DNA of 29,932 bases from a virus. Lineage: Duplodnaviria > Heunggongvirae > Uroviricota > Caudoviricetes. The stretch spans positions 1-29,932 of IMG/VR virus record IMGVR_UViG_640753024_000007. One strand, given 5' to 3'. The position numbers were made by a program, and so were the translations under genes. Within the stretch, counting starts at the first letter, position 1. The number at the start of each line of letters is the position of its first letter. Below the pieces are notes generated by a model that was given only the letters and a program-made list of their open reading frames with translations, was not told the origin of the DNA and did not search any database. Positions 3,973 to 29,932 of this stretch are shown here, in pieces.

Positions 3973-4176
3973 TTACGGCGCTGTTTTTAATCCTGCCGGG
4001 ATTTCGTTATTGTCCATGTGAATAACTTTATCGACCGGATAACAGTTGCCGGGAATTTTCTGTTCCGCTGCGGCAGCCATGCATTCTTTCATTGAGTTGT
4101 ACATGCCGGTGATTGCATCAAGCGACTCACCAGTATTGAGATGTACAGTCAGAATGAGTACGAATAATGTGTTCAT
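3973..4176 (-). CDS. Small hypothetical protein with N-terminal hydrophobic (signal-like) segment
   Basis: GGAGA Shine-Dalgarno 6 nt before the ATG at 4176; ATGA overlap with the stop of the upstream DicB-like gene; hydrophobic N-terminus LFVLILTVHL. Confidence 0.5.
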   Translation of the reverse strand: MNTLFVLILTVHLNTGESLDAITGMYNSMKECMAAAAEQKIPGNCYPVDKVIHMDNNEIPAGLKTAP

Positions 4177-4361
4177 CGCCACTCTCCGAAAATACCGAGT
4201 TTAAGAAGGGCAATTCTGGAGAGTATGGAATTGTCATTCAGCAGGTAGGGTTCATATTTTCTCATATTGATTGCATCCTCGGTGAAATCCCTGTTACTGA
4301 GCAGAACACCAATATTAAAGCACCCGTCAGACGTATTAACGTTTGGTAGTGACGTTTCCAT
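4173..4361 (-). CDS. dicB: Cell division inhibitor DicB homolog
   Basis: 62-aa ORF METSLPNVNTSDGCFNIGVLLSNRDFTEDAIN... strongly resembles my recollection of E. coli DicB (62 aa, MKTLLPNVNTSEGCFEIGV...FTEDAIN); GAGGA RBS. Confidence 0.75.
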   Translation of the reverse strand: METSLPNVNTSDGCFNIGVLLSNRDFTEDAINMRKYEPYLLNDNSILSRIALLKLGIFGEWR

Positions 4362-4371
4362 TATCGCGTCC

Positions 4372-4929
4372 TCAACAATGAATTTTTAGCAATTGCTCCA
4401 CAGTCATATTTTTAATTGCGCTCCGGTTTACAAGAGTCCATCCTTGTTTCTCCAGATAAAAGCGGAAAGTATCCAGAGTACAGACGAGAGCGCCGTCAGG
4501 AACGGTTTCGGTGAATTTGATATTGCCGCGTTCGTCGAAGTGAACAACGAGAGTGCGACCATCACCAGGAATTATTTTGTCTGTGGTAGTGGTATTAAGC
4601 TGGTACAACTCTGCCTCCATGCGATCGAATTCAGCGATGTAGGCTTCCTTGAAAGCTGCGGCTTTTTTGCCCGTGAAGCCCATCACCAGGAAAACGAAGC
4701 CGTTTTTGGTGATTTGGTACATAGGGAGTTTGCGCCCGGTTGAGTCGGTGTATTCGCTCACCTTAAAATTAAGGGCAGTGAATTCAGGGGAGCAATCCAG
4801 TAATTTTATTTTTTGAATAACATTGTCGTGGCGTTTGCCAAAGAACTCGGCGATCGCAACAGACGTAGTGACAGCGCGACCATTTTCGATGGTTACGTCA
4901 GGTTGAGAAAGGGTAGGGATAGTAGCCAT
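4372..4929 (-). CDS. Rha-family phage regulatory protein (antirepressor-like)
   Basis: N-terminal signature GRAVTTSVAIAEFFGKRHDNVIQKIK typical of Rha; start chosen at the internal ATG (4929) with a GAGG RBS because the in-frame upstream extension to 5226 contains a terminator hairpin and conserved non-coding-looking elements. Confidence 0.75.
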   Translation of the reverse strand: MATIPTLSQPDVTIENGRAVTTSVAIAEFFGKRHDNVIQKIKLLDCSPEFTALNFKVSEYTDSTGRKLPMYQITKNGFVFLVMGFTGKKAAAFKEAYIAEFDRMEAELYQLNTTTTDKIIPGDGRTLVVHFDERGNIKFTETVPDGALVCTLDTFRFYLEKQGWTLVNRSAIKNMTVEQLLKIHC

Positions 4930-5070
4930 GATAGCAGCCTCGTTAGTGAATTTGATTAACTCACCACCAAGGTTTTCCACGACCATAAGGGTGGTGAGAC
5001 GTACAGGGGTGGAAATACCGGTCACTAACGAACCCGGCCAGCCTTGCGGCTGCCCTGCACGTCCCACCAT

Positions 5071-5098
5071 AATCTGAATGTGGCTGTGCATTACGCAT
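5071..5098 (-). terminator. Putative intrinsic terminator in the leader upstream of rha
   Basis: On the minus strand: ACCGC-gctcag-GCGGT followed by TTTTTTT. Confidence 0.45.
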
Positions 5099-5446
5099 AA
5101 AAAAACCGCCTGAGCGCGGTTATGCGCGTTAGTGAACATCGGGTTTCCACGCCCGGCACCCGTTTTATGAGGTGCAGGTGCACTATAATTCCACCCGTTC
5201 TGGTTTTCAATAGCTACATTCAACATTTTCTCTACCTTTCATCACCTAAGTGAACTTTGTGATGCGGTGCCTGGTGCCTCCAGGTGACGTTAACCAGTTA
5301 ACAATTAACGCCGGATGATTCACCCATAACACTTGTGTTTTTAACTGTTCTGCGTGCGCTGAGCCGCATTCACCGCATCACGAAATTCACTTTTTACTTC
5401 ATAGACCGTGATATGATTTAGCTTTCCACAGTAAAAAGGAGTGTTT

Positions 5447-5710
5447 ATGTCCCATATACATAGTCGTGAACACATGAATGATGGTGACCTTGTCAGGGTT
5501 CAATGTTCACACCAGATTAATGTTTTATTAATGGATGATTCAAATTACCAGGCTTTCAAGCGGGGCGGGCGTTTTACCTATTACGGCGGTTTCTATGAAC
5601 GATTCCCTGCCAATATTACCGTGCCCCACTCGGGTTACTGGAATGTTGTATTAGCACTCCCTCCCGGTCATCGAGCCAATATCAGATACTCCATTAACGT
5701 TATCAGATAG
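5447..5710 (+). CDS. Hypothetical protein
   Basis: AAAGGA RBS 6 nt before ATG 5447; 87-aa ORF with no recognisable motifs. Confidence 0.5.
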   Translation: MSHIHSREHMNDGDLVRVQCSHQINVLLMDDSNYQAFKRGGRFTYYGGFYERFPANITVPHSGYWNVVLALPPGHRANIRYSINVIR

Positions 5711-6232: not shown

Positions 6233-6517
6233 ATGGCAAAATTTACAGTCAGGATCGAACTTCGCGATTCCAGTTCCGCTGATTACGATAAGCTTCATGA
6301 ACGAATGGAAGCAAAGGGATTCTCCAGAACGATTACAACCTCTTTAGGGAACACCTACCGTCTTCCTAATGCCGAATATATATATTCAAGCAAGAATGAA
6401 GACAAAGAATCTGTTGCTGACCTTGCTGAATCAGTGGCCTCAAAAGTTAAGAAAAATCCCGGTGTTCTTGTTACCGAATCTAATGGGCGCTATGTAAAAA
6501 ACTTAGATGATGCTTAA
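6233..6517 (+). CDS. Hypothetical protein (94 aa)
   Basis: GGAGGA RBS 4 nt before ATG 6233; charged, Lys/Glu-rich soluble protein. Confidence 0.6.
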   Translation: MAKFTVRIELRDSSSADYDKLHERMEAKGFSRTITTSLGNTYRLPNAEYIYSSKNEDKESVADLAESVASKVKKNPGVLVTESNGRYVKNLDDA

Positions 6518-12554: not shown

Positions 12555-12980
12555 GAAAAGTCCTTTTGAACATATAGGAATATACTAGAACATAAATAGA
12601 TGCAATGCATAAAGGAAAAGCTACCGCAGGGCGCACTCACCCACCGATAGCTCTTAACTGCTTGTTTGTAAAAGATAATACATAAATTTGGGTCTGTGTA
12701 AAGAGGTAAGCATCGTCAGGGCAAGGGAGATGTGTTAGGCAATATTGGTAAAATTTACGTTGAGGATAAAAACGGTTTGCGGGAAAAGGAGAGTTAAGTA
12801 GAATTGCTGCGGGTGCTTGAGGCTATCTGTCTCAGGCATGAACACCAAAAGGCAGATAGAGAAAAGCCCCAGTTAACATTACGCGTCCTGCAAGACGCTT
12901 AACATTAATCTGAGGCCCAATCTATGTCTCACAAATGTAGGTTAGCCTCTTACGTGCCGAAAGGCAAGGAGAAGCAGGCT

Positions 12981-13136
12981 ATGAAGCAGCAAAAGGCGAT
13001 GTTAATCGCCCTGATCGTCATCTGTTTAACCGTCATAGTGACGGCACTGGTAACGAGGAAAGACCTCTGCGAGGTACGAATCCGAACCGGCCAGACGGAG
13101 GTCGCTGTCTTCGCAGCTTACGAACCTGAGGAGTAA
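12981..13136 (+). CDS. hokD: Hok/Gef-family type I toxin
   Basis: MKQQKAMLIALIVICLTVIVTALVTRKDLCEVRIRTGQTEVAVFAAYEPEE matches the Hok family and the HokD/RelF sequence as I recall it; AGGAGA RBS; an in-frame upstream extension from 12924 occupies the mok position. Confidence 0.85.
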   Translation: MKQQKAMLIALIVICLTVIVTALVTRKDLCEVRIRTGQTEVAVFAAYEPEE

Positions 13137-19487: not shown

Positions 19488-19563
<76 letters not shown>

Positions 19564-19566
19564 TAT

Positions 19567-19641
<75 letters not shown>

Positions 19642-29188: not shown

Positions 29189-29371
29189 TGACGTCCTCTA
29201 GTGGTTTCTAAACTTAAACTATCACCACCGTCAGGTTCCAATCATCGGGTGGTGAGACGCACAGGGTTGGAACTACCGGGAAACCGACCGACGAGCTTTT
29301 CAGCTCCCCCATGCGCCCCACAATAATTCATATGTGCGCGTGCATACGAGAAAAAACACTTGTTATATCTG

Positions 29372-29932
29372 CTAAAGCTGCATCAGCCTTTCCACCAGTT
29401 GTTCTTTACGGGCAACGAGCCAGCCGTGTTGCTCCAGATAAAATTTAAACCGTTCCAGAGTGCATACCATCGCATCGGCGGGGACTTTTTCTGTGAACTC
29501 TACCTGACCGTGTTTATCAAAGTGGATCAGTAATGCGCATCCATCATTTGGGGTGGGTGAGTTTTGTGTTGCTGGTGGTTGTTTTTGGCTGAAATAACAG
29601 TCTTCCAGTTTTTCGAACACTTCCCATGCCTGATCGGTTTCGAGCATTTTGGCATGGCGGGCTGCGCCACGTTCTGTCCAGAGGATAAGGGAACGGGCAT
29701 TTTTACCAACTAACCCGATTGTTTCAGGTCTGTTCTTAAACTCGCGTAATTCGTTTTTTTCAATTTTAAAGTAATGCTTTCCTACCACGAATCGCGTCGT
29801 GTTGTTCCGAAAGTTATCAGAAATGTTTTTGATTTTTGTTCCGTATAACTGCGCCAGAAGTTCAGTTGTAATAACGGGGACCTGGTTGTGGGTGATTGCA
29901 GGAAGAGTGTCGACAGAAATTTGAGTGGGCAT
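29372..29932 (-). CDS. Phage antirepressor (AntA/KilA-N-type N-terminal domain; C-terminal domain shared with the Rha protein at 4372..4929)
   Basis: 186-aa ORF whose ATG is the last codon in the window (true start could lie beyond it); C-terminal FTEKVPADAMVCTLERFKFYLEQHGW parallels the Rha C-terminus FTETVPDGALVCTLDTFRFYLEKQGW. Confidence 0.7.
   Translation of the reverse strand: MPTQISVDTLPAITHNQVPVITTELLAQLYGTKIKNISDNFRNNTTRFVVGKHYFKIEKNELREFKNRPETIGLVGKNARSLILWTERGAARHAKMLETDQAWEVFEKLEDCYFSQKQPPATQNSPTPNDGCALLIHFDKHGQVEFTEKVPADAMVCTLERFKFYLEQHGWLVARKEQLVERLMQL

What the first reader, a model, noticed from the sequence alone, without database searches (positions are those of the whole stretch)
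4930..5230. The 99-codon N-terminal extension of the Rha ORF is probably a non-coding leader with a terminator and a conserved inverted repeat
The ORF track extends rha to 5226, but that region contains a minus-strand intrinsic terminator (5071-5098) and a 9-bp inverted repeat (CTCACCACC at 4960-4968, GGTGGTGAG at 4990-4998). The Rha N-terminal signature starts only at the internal ATG at 4929, which has its own RBS. A near-identical segment (GGTGGTGAGACGyACAGGGkTGGAA) with the same inverted repeat recurs at 29222-29275, upstream of the antirepressor pseudogene. An inner hairpin differs between the copies but stays complementary (CAGCC/GGCTG versus GAGCT/AGCTC), which suggests selection on RNA structure. 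This may be a cis-regulatory leader or small RNA controlling antirepressor expression, comparable to the sar/c4 antisense controls of ant in P22/P1.
Basis: seen in the sequence. Interest (0 to 1): 0.55.

Follow-up and report, generated by a model that had tools for sequence, protein, structure and literature searches.

The report
P4-type RNA immunity cassette before rha
The stretch in front of the rha antirepressor gene is a known kind of phage immunity switch made of two small RNAs (IsrK and C4) that mask the gene's ribosome-binding site, but the long reading frame across it is also kept open, as in phage P4, so it is not simply non-coding.

Summary
The 9-bp inverted repeat, the second copy near 29.2 kb, the compensatory inner hairpin and the internal ATG with its own RBS are all there. 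The terminator is at 5099-5121, not 5071-5098.

Rfam places an isrK RNA (5175-5099) and a C4 antisense RNA (5074-4987) on the minus strand, both above gathering score, and a second C4 at 29328-29245. The layout matches P1 immI, P4 immunity and N15: promoter, a1/b1 decoy with terminator (IsrK), C4, then a2 and b2, with b2 overlapping the rha Shine-Dalgarno.

Across 64 distinct homologous leaders the C4 loops co-vary with a1/b1 and a2/b2 (14 specificity types). The inverted repeat co-varies among P1, P4, N15 and this family.

"Non-coding" is only half right. In 57 Rha-type loci the frame in phase with rha has 0 of 43 distinct stop sites. An in-frame ATG sits just upstream of the isrK promoter in several unrelated contexts. 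Yet there is no third-codon-position signature. This matches P4's nested eta/kil genes. Pfam "Phage_ASH" is the translation of this RNA region.

Verdict: a new member of a known kind. It matters mainly for annotation and for Stx-phage "Rha/Ash" proteins.

The parts
4372..5226 (-). Long 284-codon ORF (eta-like 'Ash-Rha' frame). Its ATG at 5226 lies upstream of the isrK promoter.
   Evidence: RefSeq annotates it as one Rha CDS. Pfam Phage_ASH covers aa 14-109 and Phage_pRha covers aa 120-204; the frame is free of stops in all 57 Rha-type homologues; an in-frame ATG precedes the promoter in several unrelated upstream contexts.
5182..5210 (-). Sigma-70-type promoter of isrK (TTGAAA, 17 nt, TATAGT). 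The predicted start is about 5175.
   Evidence: The equivalent -35/-10 boxes sit at the same distance before isrK in homologues, P4 and N15.
5099..5175 (-). IsrK / seqA-type small RNA with two hairpins and an intrinsic terminator.
   Evidence: Rfam RF01394, 65.9 bits against a gathering score of 50; terminator stem 5121-5104 plus a U-run.
5144..5150 (-). a1 site (GUGGAAA) in the loop of IsrK hairpin 2, complementary to a' of C4.
   Evidence: 7 pairs, 6 co-vary, 100% paired in 64 sequences.
5127..5135 (-). b1 site (UCACUAACG), complementary to C4 loop 2.
   Evidence: 9 pairs, all co-vary, 92.8% paired.
4987..5074 (-). C4 / CI-type antisense RNA (17-bp closing stem, two inner hairpins).
   Evidence: RF01695, 80.3 bits against a gathering score of 45.: -48.4 kcal/mol, z = -5.1; the inner hairpin co-varies at 5 of 5 pairs.
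5022..5031 (-). b' (UCGUUAGUGA), loop of the second C4 hairpin.
5009..5015 (-). a' (UUUCCAC), single-stranded joint of C4.
4960..4998 (-). CUCACCACC (the 3' arm of the C4 closing stem plus 2 nt) pairs with GGUGGUGAG, and a2 lies in the loop.
   Evidence: -17.3 kcal/mol, z = -3.2; compensatory changes in P4, N15 and P1; conserved in data set 2.
4974..4980 (-). a2 target site (GUGGAAA).
   Evidence: an exact complement of the locus's own a' in 64 of 64 loci, against 0 of 3354 cross-locus pairings.
4940..4949 (-). b2 target site (UCACUAACGA), overlapping the Shine-Dalgarno GAGG (4941-4938).
   Evidence: 9 pairs, 8 co-vary.
4372..4929 (-). Nested short rha gene (185 aa) with its own SD and ATG. 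Its N-terminus MATIPT... is homologous to the N-terminus of P4 Kil, MATTLT...
29245..29328 (-). Second C4 copy with a different specificity (a' GUUCCAA, b' GGUUUC). It has no IsrK and lies upstream of an ORF6N antirepressor pseudogene.
   Evidence: 58.4 bits; a2 UUGGAAC at 29241-29235, inverted repeat 29255/29229, GAAACC at 29208-29203.

Best explanation
The 300 bases upstream of the rha ATG at 4929 are an RNA immunity cassette of the P4/P1/N15 type.

Transcription and the two RNAs. A constitutive sigma-70 promoter (5210-5182) starts transcription at about 5175. Most transcripts end at the terminator (5121-5099) and give the 77-nt IsrK RNA. IsrK carries the sites a1 and b1. Read-through transcripts contain the C4 RNA (5074-4987). 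In P1 and P4 this RNA is cut out, with RNase P making the 5' end; that step is inferred here.

Repression. The two single-stranded elements of C4, a' and b', pair with a2 (4980-4974) and with b2 (4949-4940). b2 covers the Shine-Dalgarno sequence of rha. Pairing therefore blocks translation of the antirepressor and may also cause premature termination, as in P4. IsrK presents the same two sequences and competes for, or pre-pairs with, C4. In Gifsy-1, IsrK supplied in trans derepresses the downstream antirepressor.

The long ORF. The 284-codon ORF is not an accident. Like P4 eta, it starts just upstream of the internal promoter, runs in phase through both RNA genes into the nested short gene (rha here, kil in P4), and is kept free of stops. 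It is probably translated only from transcripts that arrive from upstream, such as the early-left operon after induction. Ribosomes crossing the region would then override C4 control.

Shown versus inferred. Shown here: the identity of the RNAs, the layout, the pairings by covariation, and the conserved open frame. Inferred from P1, P4, N15 and Gifsy-1: processing of C4, repression in trans, the decoy role of IsrK, and conditional translation of the long ORF.
For: Rfam hits above gathering score for isrK and C4 in the window. The same pair is found in P4 and N15, and c4-a1b1 plus C4 in P1. The P1 GenBank record annotates a1, b1, c4, a2, b2, icd and ant in the same order. Covariation over 64 distinct leaders: a1-a' 100% paired with 6 of 7 pairs co-varying; b1-b' 9 of 9 co-varying; b'-b2 8 of 9 co-varying; the whole structure 98.4% paired against about 40% when the partners are slid. 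a'-a2 is an exact complement in 64 of 64 loci, against 0 of 3354 across loci, with 14 specificity types. b2 abuts or overlaps the SD in every cassette type, although the downstream genes differ (Rha, ORF6N Ant, a 76-aa MANRK... gene). Open frame: 0, 18 and 25 distinct stop sites by frame in the leader, against 0, 24 and 38 in the Rha CDS. Block-shuffled leaders are open with probability about 0.027. An in-frame ATG, often with a strong SD, lies 15-20 nt before the -35 box in at least 6 non-homologous upstream contexts. In an independent data set, 51 of 82 regions have a stop-free frame through IsrK, C4 and a2, against 11.6 expected; the median ORF is 200 aa. P4 precedent: the eta ORF covers the isrK and C4 hits, and kil (65 aa, MATTLTPSHPEF...) is nested in frame after b2 and the SD. 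The mechanism is summarised in PMC10111431. IsrK equals seqA and C4 equals CI, and both occur in lambdoid prophages (PMC3632133). For Gifsy-1 isrK-orf45-anrP, compensatory mutations prove IsrK pairing with the region downstream.
Against: No expression data exist for this locus. Processing of C4, repression of rha and translation of the long ORF are all untested. Codon-position diversity in the leader shows no protein-like constraint, so if the extension is translated its sequence seems not to matter. The SD before ATG 5226 is weak in this window. Two opposite-strand genes (GhoS-like, DUF1883) lie between the presumed early-left promoter and the cassette. The long frame is not universal: many ORF6N-type cassettes and one Stx2a phage lack a frame that is open from upstream of the promoter. 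In Gifsy-1 the authors explain activation through a 45-codon ORF over the C4 region, and they report that co-expressing STnc1160 did not relieve toxicity. That does not fit a simple picture of C4 as repressor and IsrK as sponge.
Confidence: 0.75

Rival explanations
1. Purely non-coding leader. The RNAs are real, and the 99-codon extension is an accidental open frame that gene callers wrongly fuse to Rha.
For: There is no third-position excess in the leader: 0.198/0.224/0.213, against 0.205/0.165/0.418 in the Rha CDS. A promoter and a terminator sit inside the 'gene'. The Rha family models start at the internal ATG. Some cassette types have no long open frame.
Against: 0 of 43 distinct stop sites fall in the rha frame across 44 distinct leaders. 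Indels of -1 and -2 nt that flank the C4 3' arm sum to -3 and keep phase. An in-frame ATG recurs before the promoter in unrelated upstream sequences. Stop-free frames are enriched in an independent data set, 51 observed against 11.6 expected. P4 eta is an experimentally studied precedent.
Confidence: 0.15
2. Gifsy-1-type activation. A short ORF over C4 (here the 45-codon ORF 5098-4961) must be translated for rha to be translated by coupling, and IsrK in trans opens that ORF's RBS.
For: A 45-codon ORF exists at the equivalent place. The Gifsy-1 genetics support coupling through orf45.
Against: This frame is interrupted in many homologues, often by a stop in the a' segment 7 nt before the C4 3' arm. 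Its stop is 32 nt upstream of the rha ATG. rha has its own SD, covered by b2. The ORF has no Pfam match.
Confidence: 0.08
3. Genuine two-domain Ash-Rha protein only, as annotated by RefSeq and Pfam. The RNA family hits would be incidental.
For: Pfam Phage_ASH scores 64 bits against a cut-off of 26. PHROG families include the extension. PGAP calls one CDS.
Against: The same DNA scores above the gathering cut-off for two Rfam families. Stems and long-range pairings co-vary, which no protein constraint explains. There is no codon periodicity. P4 CI, the homologous element, is known to act as an RNA.
Confidence: 0.02

Closest known systems
Phage P4 immunity region (PLE, seqA, CI RNA, seqC; nested genes eta and kil)
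   Same: It has the same Rfam pair, isrK and C4, in the same order. The promoter is internal to a long ORF that starts about 50-70 nt upstream of it. The short gene is nested in phase and starts right after b2 and the SD, with a homologous N-terminus (MATTLT / MATIPT). The same inverted repeat encloses a2. Pfam Phage_ASH covers the same stretch.
   Different: The downstream gene is a Rha-type regulator or antirepressor of a lambdoid prophage, not kil and the P4 replication operon. The IsrK-C4 spacer is 24 nt, against about 107 nt in P4. The specificity sequences differ. In P4 the main read-out is Rho-dependent termination, which could not be tested here.
P1/P7 immI (c4, icd, ant)
   Same: C4 family RNA on the same strand as its target. 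The sites lie in the same order, a1, b1, c4, a2, b2, as annotated in the P1 record. b2 lies at the RBS of the first gene, and the system controls an antirepressor.
   Different: In P1, b2 masks the RBS of icd, and ant is expressed by coupling. Here b2 masks the antirepressor gene itself. The P1 upstream element matches Rfam c4-a1b1, not isrK. No eta-like long ORF was examined in P1.
N15 anti-immunity region (C4-type processed RNA upstream of the antirepressor operon)
   Same: An IsrK plus C4 pair, the inverted repeat GCUACCACC/GGUGGUAGC with a2 in the loop, and b2 before the first gene. It is also a lambdoid-type phage.
   Different: The downstream genes differ (a small ORF, then gp31 and Ant). 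No long in-phase ORF was examined.
Gifsy-1 isrK - orf45 (STnc1160) - anrP of Salmonella
   Same: A lambdoid prophage with IsrK and its terminator, read-through into a processed stable RNA, then an antirepressor. IsrK pairs with the downstream RNA, and its authors compare it with P4 seqA/CI.
   Different: The published model rests on translation of orf45. That frame is not conserved in the relatives of this window. Here the conserved frame is the one in phase with rha.
P22 sar / ant
   Same: A small RNA represses translation of an antirepressor.
   Different: sar is a true cis-antisense RNA transcribed from the opposite strand across the ant RBS (my own knowledge). Here the regulator lies on the same strand, upstream, and acts through two short loop-target pairings. 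The window gives no good evidence for an antisense promoter; there is only a 9-of-12 consensus match at chance level.

Membership tests
Rfam C4 antisense RNA (RF01695; P1 c4 / P4 CI) | Score at or above the curated gathering threshold over the full model | tested here: met
   Copy A (5074-4987) scores 80.3 bits against 45, over model positions 1-87 of 87. Copy B scores 58.4 bits.
Rfam C4 antisense RNA (RF01695; P1 c4 / P4 CI) | Long closing stem with two inner hairpins, supported by covariation | tested here: met
   The MFE structure equals the consensus, at -48.4 kcal/mol and z = -5.1. The inner hairpin co-varies at 5 of 5 pairs, with 99.7% paired. The closing stem is 99.9% paired, but its 3' arm was fixed by my search pattern.
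Rfam C4 antisense RNA (RF01695; P1 c4 / P4 CI) | Two unpaired elements (a', b') complementary to sites a2 and b2 downstream on the same transcript, with b2 at the RBS of the first gene | tested here: met
   Here a' pairs with a2 at 7 of 7 positions and b' pairs with b2 at 10 of 10. b2 overlaps GAGG. Covariation is shown.
Rfam C4 antisense RNA (RF01695; P1 c4 / P4 CI) | Processed from a longer transcript (RNase P at the 5' end) to a stable RNA of about 77 nt that represses in trans | not testable with these tools
   This needs Northern blots, RNA-seq and genetics.
IsrK / P4 seqA / P1 a1b1 element | Rfam isrK score at or above the gathering threshold, ending in an intrinsic terminator | tested here: met
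   It scores 65.9 bits against 50. The terminator has a stem at 5121-5104 plus a U-run.
IsrK / P4 seqA / P1 a1b1 element | Carries copies of the C4 target sequences (a1, b1) | tested here: met
   a1 lies at 5150-5144 and b1 at 5135-5127. In 64 sequences a1-a' is 100% paired and b1-b' is 92.8% paired, and 15 of the 16 pairs co-vary.
IsrK / P4 seqA / P1 a1b1 element | Hfq binding; trans-activation of the downstream antirepressor (Gifsy-1) | not testable with these tools
   Known only from the literature.
P4 eta/kil-type nested genes | Long ORF that starts upstream of the internal constitutive promoter and runs through seqA, CI and seqC | tested here: met
   The ATG at 5226 lies 16 nt upstream of the -35 box at 5210. 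The same holds in homologues with unrelated upstream DNA. P4 eta covers the isrK and C4 hits.
P4 eta/kil-type nested genes | Short gene nested in the same frame, with its own SD overlapped by the C4 target | tested here: met
   The rha ATG at 4929 is in phase and b2 overlaps the SD. Its N-terminus is homologous to that of Kil.
P4 eta/kil-type nested genes | Reading frame maintained by selection | tested here: met
   The leader has 0, 18 and 25 stop sites by frame. An independent data set has 51 of 82 regions with an open frame, against 11.6 expected.
P4 eta/kil-type nested genes | Long form translated only from an upstream regulated promoter; its translation prevents immunity-dependent termination | not testable with these tools
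   Known for P4 only, through the summary in PMC10111431. The primary paper (PMC94026) is not held.
Pfam Phage_ASH (PF10554) as a protein domain | Score above the gathering cut-off | tested here: met
   It scores 64.3 bits against 26 over aa 14-109.
Pfam Phage_ASH (PF10554) as a protein domain | Sequence conservation driven by protein-level selection (third-codon-position excess) | tested here: not met
   Diversity by codon position is 0.198/0.224/0.213 in the leader, against 0.205/0.165/0.418 in the Rha CDS. The conserved columns are RNA stems and pairings.
Rha family regulator (PF09669 / TIGR02681) | Family model begins at the N-terminus of the protein | tested here: met
   This holds for the short form only: TIGR02681 position 3 aligns with aa 10 of the 185-aa protein and aa 109 of the 284-aa ORF.
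P22 sar-type cis-antisense control | Regulator transcribed from the strand opposite the target RBS | tested here: not met
   Both RNAs lie on the rha strand. The only plus-strand promoter-like match near the RBS scores 9 of 12, and such matches are found at chance frequency in this region.

The most novel reading that the evidence does not exclude
The so-called Ash domain is not a protein domain in the usual sense. It would be a stretch whose sequence is shaped by two RNA genes and their pairings, while its reading frame is selected only to stay open, so that ribosomes arriving from upstream can run through and switch off RNA immunity. This dual use would be general to IsrK-C4 cassettes of lambdoid prophages, including the Rha/Ash genes next to cI in Stx phages. 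In addition, the conserved inverted repeat shares its 5' arm with the C4 closing stem. The precursor could therefore toggle between a fold that makes C4 and a fold that displays a2 in a hairpin loop. I did not find that conformational switch described in the papers I could read.
Probability: 0.35. Interest if true: 0.5.

Novelty: new member of a known kind. Interest (0 to 1): 0.33.

Why it matters
These cassettes decide whether a prophage antirepressor is made, and so whether the prophage is induced. The same IsrK-C4-Rha module is present in many Stx2a-converting phages. A 2021 preprint on Stx phages states that no function is assigned to the Ash domain of their Rha/Ash proteins.

RefSeq annotates this locus as one 284-aa Rha protein and annotates no RNA gene. 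Recognising the RNAs has three practical consequences. First, it corrects the annotation. Second, it explains a Pfam family of unknown function. Third, it gives a sequence read-out of immunity specificity: at least 14 a' types were seen, which predicts which prophages cross-repress each other's antirepressors.

The conserved open frame extends the P4 eta/kil principle to lambdoid prophages. That extension can be tested directly.

Tried and rejected
- Terminator at 5071-5098: rejected. The terminator is at 5099-5121.
- Purely non-coding extension: rejected as the whole story after counting stop codons by frame.
- Conserved orf45-type ORF, as in Gifsy-1: not conserved in this family.
- Using the six 'Ash' translations (A3) to fetch distant loci: the tool found no conserved stretch. 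I used an IsrK DNA pattern instead.
- Reading the primary P4 papers (Forti 1999, PMC94026; Sabbattini 1995, PMC176756): not held. I relied on the summaries in PMC10111431 and PMC3632133.
- Formal pair counting for a'-a2 on alignment A2: it understates the pairing (71%) because MAFFT offsets a2 by one column between length classes. I replaced it with an exact-complement test that has a cross-locus control.
- Covariation of the inverted repeat within data set 1: impossible, because my search pattern fixed its 5' arm. I solved this with P1, P4, N15 and a second data set.
- RNAduplex energies between the two window copies: not discriminating, because stem sequences contribute.
- Assuming the window is colinear with E. 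coli DS26-1 to look beyond its end: wrong, the computed position fell in head genes. I found the right place by a separate search.
- NCBIfam: it gives no name for the 76-aa MANRK... gene.

Full report
**What is in the sequence.** On the minus strand the ORF list gives a 284-codon ORF at 5226-4372. A RefSeq genome that is 100% identical over 4300-5700 annotates it as a single Rha family CDS and annotates no RNA gene there.

On the RNA strand it reads CUCACCACC at 4998-4990 and GGUGGUGAG at 4968-4960. The internal ATG lies at 4929, preceded by GAGG at 4941-4938. The second copy and the compensatory inner hairpin are also there.

The terminator is not at 5071-5098. The only minus-strand terminator is a stem at 5121-5104 followed by a U-run to 5099. 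A sigma-70-like promoter (TTGAAA, 17 nt, TATAGT; 5210-5182) would start transcription near 5175.

**Identity of the RNAs.** Rfam, at gathering thresholds, finds isrK at 5175-5099 (65.9 bits against 50). It finds C4 antisense RNA at 5074-4987 (80.3 bits against 45) and a second C4 at 29328-29245 (58.4 bits). C4 folds into the family consensus at -48.4 kcal/mol, with z = -5.1.

The same isrK and C4 pair, in the same order, is found in phage P4, where C4 corresponds to the CI RNA, and in N15. P1 gives C4 plus the Rfam family c4-a1b1.

The P1 GenBank record annotates, in order, promoters, a1, b1, c4, a2, b2, icd and ant. The window has the same order:
- a1 GUGGAAA at 5150-5144, in the loop of IsrK hairpin 2.
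- b1 UCACUAACG at 5135-5127.
- In C4, b' at 5031-5022 and a' at 5015-5009.
- a2 at 4980-4974.
- b2 UCACUAACGA at 4949-4940, which overlaps the Shine-Dalgarno sequence of rha.

**Comparative test of the pairings.** An 18-nt pattern from the C4 3' arm retrieved 120 IMG/VR loci, giving 99 unique extracts and 56 different C4 sequences. I aligned 64 distinct leaders that run from isrK to the ATG (A2).
- The named structure is 98.4% paired, against about 40% when the partners are slid.
- a1-a': 7 pairs, 6 co-vary, 100% paired.
- b1-b': 9 pairs, all co-vary, 92.8% paired.
- C4 inner hairpin: 5 of 5 pairs co-vary.
- b'-b2: 8 of 9 pairs co-vary.
- a2 shifts by a column between length classes, so I tested it directly. 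The exact complement of the locus's own a' lies between the C4 3' end and GGUGA in 64 of 64 loci, and in 0 of 3354 cross-locus pairings. There are 14 a' types.

The genes behind b2 differ. They include Rha, ORF6N antirepressors and a 76-aa MANRK... gene. The cassette is therefore a portable regulator with many specificities.

**The inverted repeat.** Its 5' arm is the end of the C4 closing stem, its loop contains a2, and alone it folds at -17.3 kcal/mol with z = -3.2. My first data set could not test covariation, because the search pattern fixed that arm.

The model phages show compensatory change. N15 has GCUACCACC/GGUGGUAGC and P4 has GCUAUCGCC/GGCGAUAGC. P1 has CCUGCCACC/GGUAGCAGG, which pairs at 8 of 9. 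In each case a2 lies in the loop.

A second, independent data set came from an IsrK pattern and a C4 covariance model. It gave 81 unique loci with 22 arm types. The locus's own arm matched at 8 or more of 9 positions in 57 of 81, against 50 of 3230 for foreign arms.

The repeat is thus a real, conserved helix that competes with the C4 closing stem for the same strand. What it does remains an inference.

**Is the extension non-coding?** The N-terminal 99 codons hit Pfam Phage_ASH (64 bits, aa 14-109), which is exactly the isrK-C4-a2-b2 DNA.

Several results argue against a protein domain:
- Diversity by codon position in the leader of 57 Rha-type loci is flat, 0.198/0.224/0.213. The first 300 nt of the Rha CDS give 0.205/0.165/0.418.
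- The Rha family models begin at the internal ATG.

Other results argue against a merely accidental ORF:
- The frame in phase with rha has no stop in any of the 57 loci (44 distinct leaders). The other frames have 192 and 282 stop triplets.
- Counted as distinct alignment sites, the stops are 0, 18 and 25 by frame. The genuine Rha CDS gives the same pattern, 0, 24 and 38.
- Loci with a 9-nt joint have -1 nt there and -2 nt near a2, which restores phase.
- In at least six unrelated upstream contexts an in-frame ATG, often with a strong SD, lies 15-20 nt before the isrK -35 box.
- In the second data set, 51 of 82 regions have a stop-free frame through IsrK, C4 and a2, against 11.6 expected. The median ORF is 200 aa, and the ATG lies mostly 60-69 nt upstream of IsrK.

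**The P4 precedent.** P4 has an ORF at 8812-8168 that contains the isrK and C4 hits and matches the whole Phage_ASH profile. Within it, right after b2 and the SD, starts the 65-aa MATTLTPSHPEF... protein. Its N-terminus is homologous to the Rha N-terminus, MATIPTLSQPDV.

PMC10111431 summarises the experimental work of Forti et al. 1999 as follows:
- The constitutive promoter is internal to eta.
- Its transcript is terminated through the CI and seqA interactions and is processed to CI.
- Kil is a truncated Eta made on read-through.
- Full-length Eta is translated only from an upstream late promoter.
- Eta translation prevents termination.

PMC3632133 states that IsrK and C4 are seqA and CI of P4. 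It also states that lambdoid prophages carry IsrK-C4 systems. The Gifsy-1 study shows, by compensatory mutations, IsrK pairing with the RNA downstream and activation of the antirepressor. However, the 45-codon frame invoked there is not conserved in the relatives of this window.

**Most likely mechanism.** In the lysogen the internal promoter makes IsrK and, by read-through, C4. C4 pairs with a2 and b2 and keeps rha untranslated, and may also cause termination. IsrK carries the same sites and modulates C4.

Transcripts that arrive from upstream include ATG 5226. Translation through the region would then override the RNA control and yield the long form. Only the anatomy, the pairings and the open frame are shown here. 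The rest is inferred from P1, P4, N15 and Gifsy-1.

**Copy B and the surroundings.** The C4 at 29328-29245 has other specificity sequences (a' GUUCCAA, a2 UUGGAAC, a weaker b pairing of 6 nt). It has lost IsrK: homology starts at the terminator U-run. It precedes an ORF6N pseudogene.

In a genome identical to this part of the window, a complete isrK and C4 cassette lies just beyond the window end. It sits in front of the ORF6N gene whose ATG is base 29932, and the prophage abuts an ompW remnant.

**Novelty.** The kind of system is known, and the families are in Rfam. What is not in the annotation is the presence of the RNAs here and the nature of the Ash 'domain'. A Stx-phage preprint says no function is assigned to that domain. 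An Stx2a phage carries the same isrK-C4-Rha module.

I file the finding as a new member of a known kind. The generalisation of the eta/kil principle and the shared-arm helix are the parts worth testing.

Noticed in passing
window 29245-29328 (-) and beyond 29932; L231 2259-2448: The window ends exactly at the ATG of an ORF6N antirepressor gene. In an identical genome a complete isrK plus C4 cassette (a' GUUCCAA, b' UCCGUAC, inverted repeat CGCCACC/GGUGGCG) lies just upstream of that ATG. This prophage end therefore has the tandem arrangement isrK-C4-ant followed by C4-ant pseudogene, next to an ompW remnant.
   Followed up: partly
Pfam PF10554 (Phage_ASH); L122 8168-8812 (-): The whole Phage_ASH profile maps onto the P4 eta ORF across seqA/IsrK, CI/C4 and seqC. 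P4 epsilon belongs to a different family (PF25738). A P4-satellite survey nevertheless used PF10554 as its marker for epsilon, and a Stx-phage preprint calls Ash a domain of unknown function.
   Followed up: partly
L009, L015, L080, L090 and similar loci (MANRK... class): In cassettes whose b2-controlled gene is a 76-aa MANRK... protein, the long ORF from upstream of isrK continues in a different frame across that whole gene, to about +380 nt. The two ORFs overlap out of phase. NCBIfam has no name for the small protein.
   Followed up: partly
window 5252-5332 (-) and 4173-4361 (-): RefSeq annotates a truncated dicB fragment just upstream of the cassette and a complete dicB just downstream of rha. 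The isrK-C4-rha module therefore looks like an insertion into the 5' end of a dicB locus. No DicF RNA was reported by Rfam in the window.
   Followed up: no
window 12811-12986 (+): An Rfam sok antitoxin RNA hit (120 bits) indicates a hok/sok-type toxin-antitoxin locus inside the prophage.
   Followed up: no
window 19488-19560 and 19567-19638 (+): Two adjacent tRNA genes lie in the prophage (Rfam tRNA, 73.8 and 65.6 bits).
   Followed up: no
window 4926-4986 (-): In the minimum-energy fold of the C4-to-ATG transcript, the 3' half of GGUGGUGAG plus UU pairs with AAUUCAC at the 5' edge of b2. This gives the downstream arm of the inverted repeat a third possible partner. Similar small hairpins can be drawn by eye in other loci.
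   Followed up: no
L232 3000-3887 (Stx2a-converting phage LC645413.1): The record has no annotated feature in this stretch, but it carries isrK, C4 and a Rha-type gene. Here the long frame opens only at an ATG inside isrK, so the eta-like start upstream of the promoter is not universal.
   Followed up: partly
window 5441-5710 (+) and about 6233-6517 (+): A DUF1883 gene and a GhoS-like antitoxin gene lie on the opposite strand, between the presumed early-left promoter region and the cassette. This may limit transcription reaching ATG 5226 from upstream.
   Followed up: no
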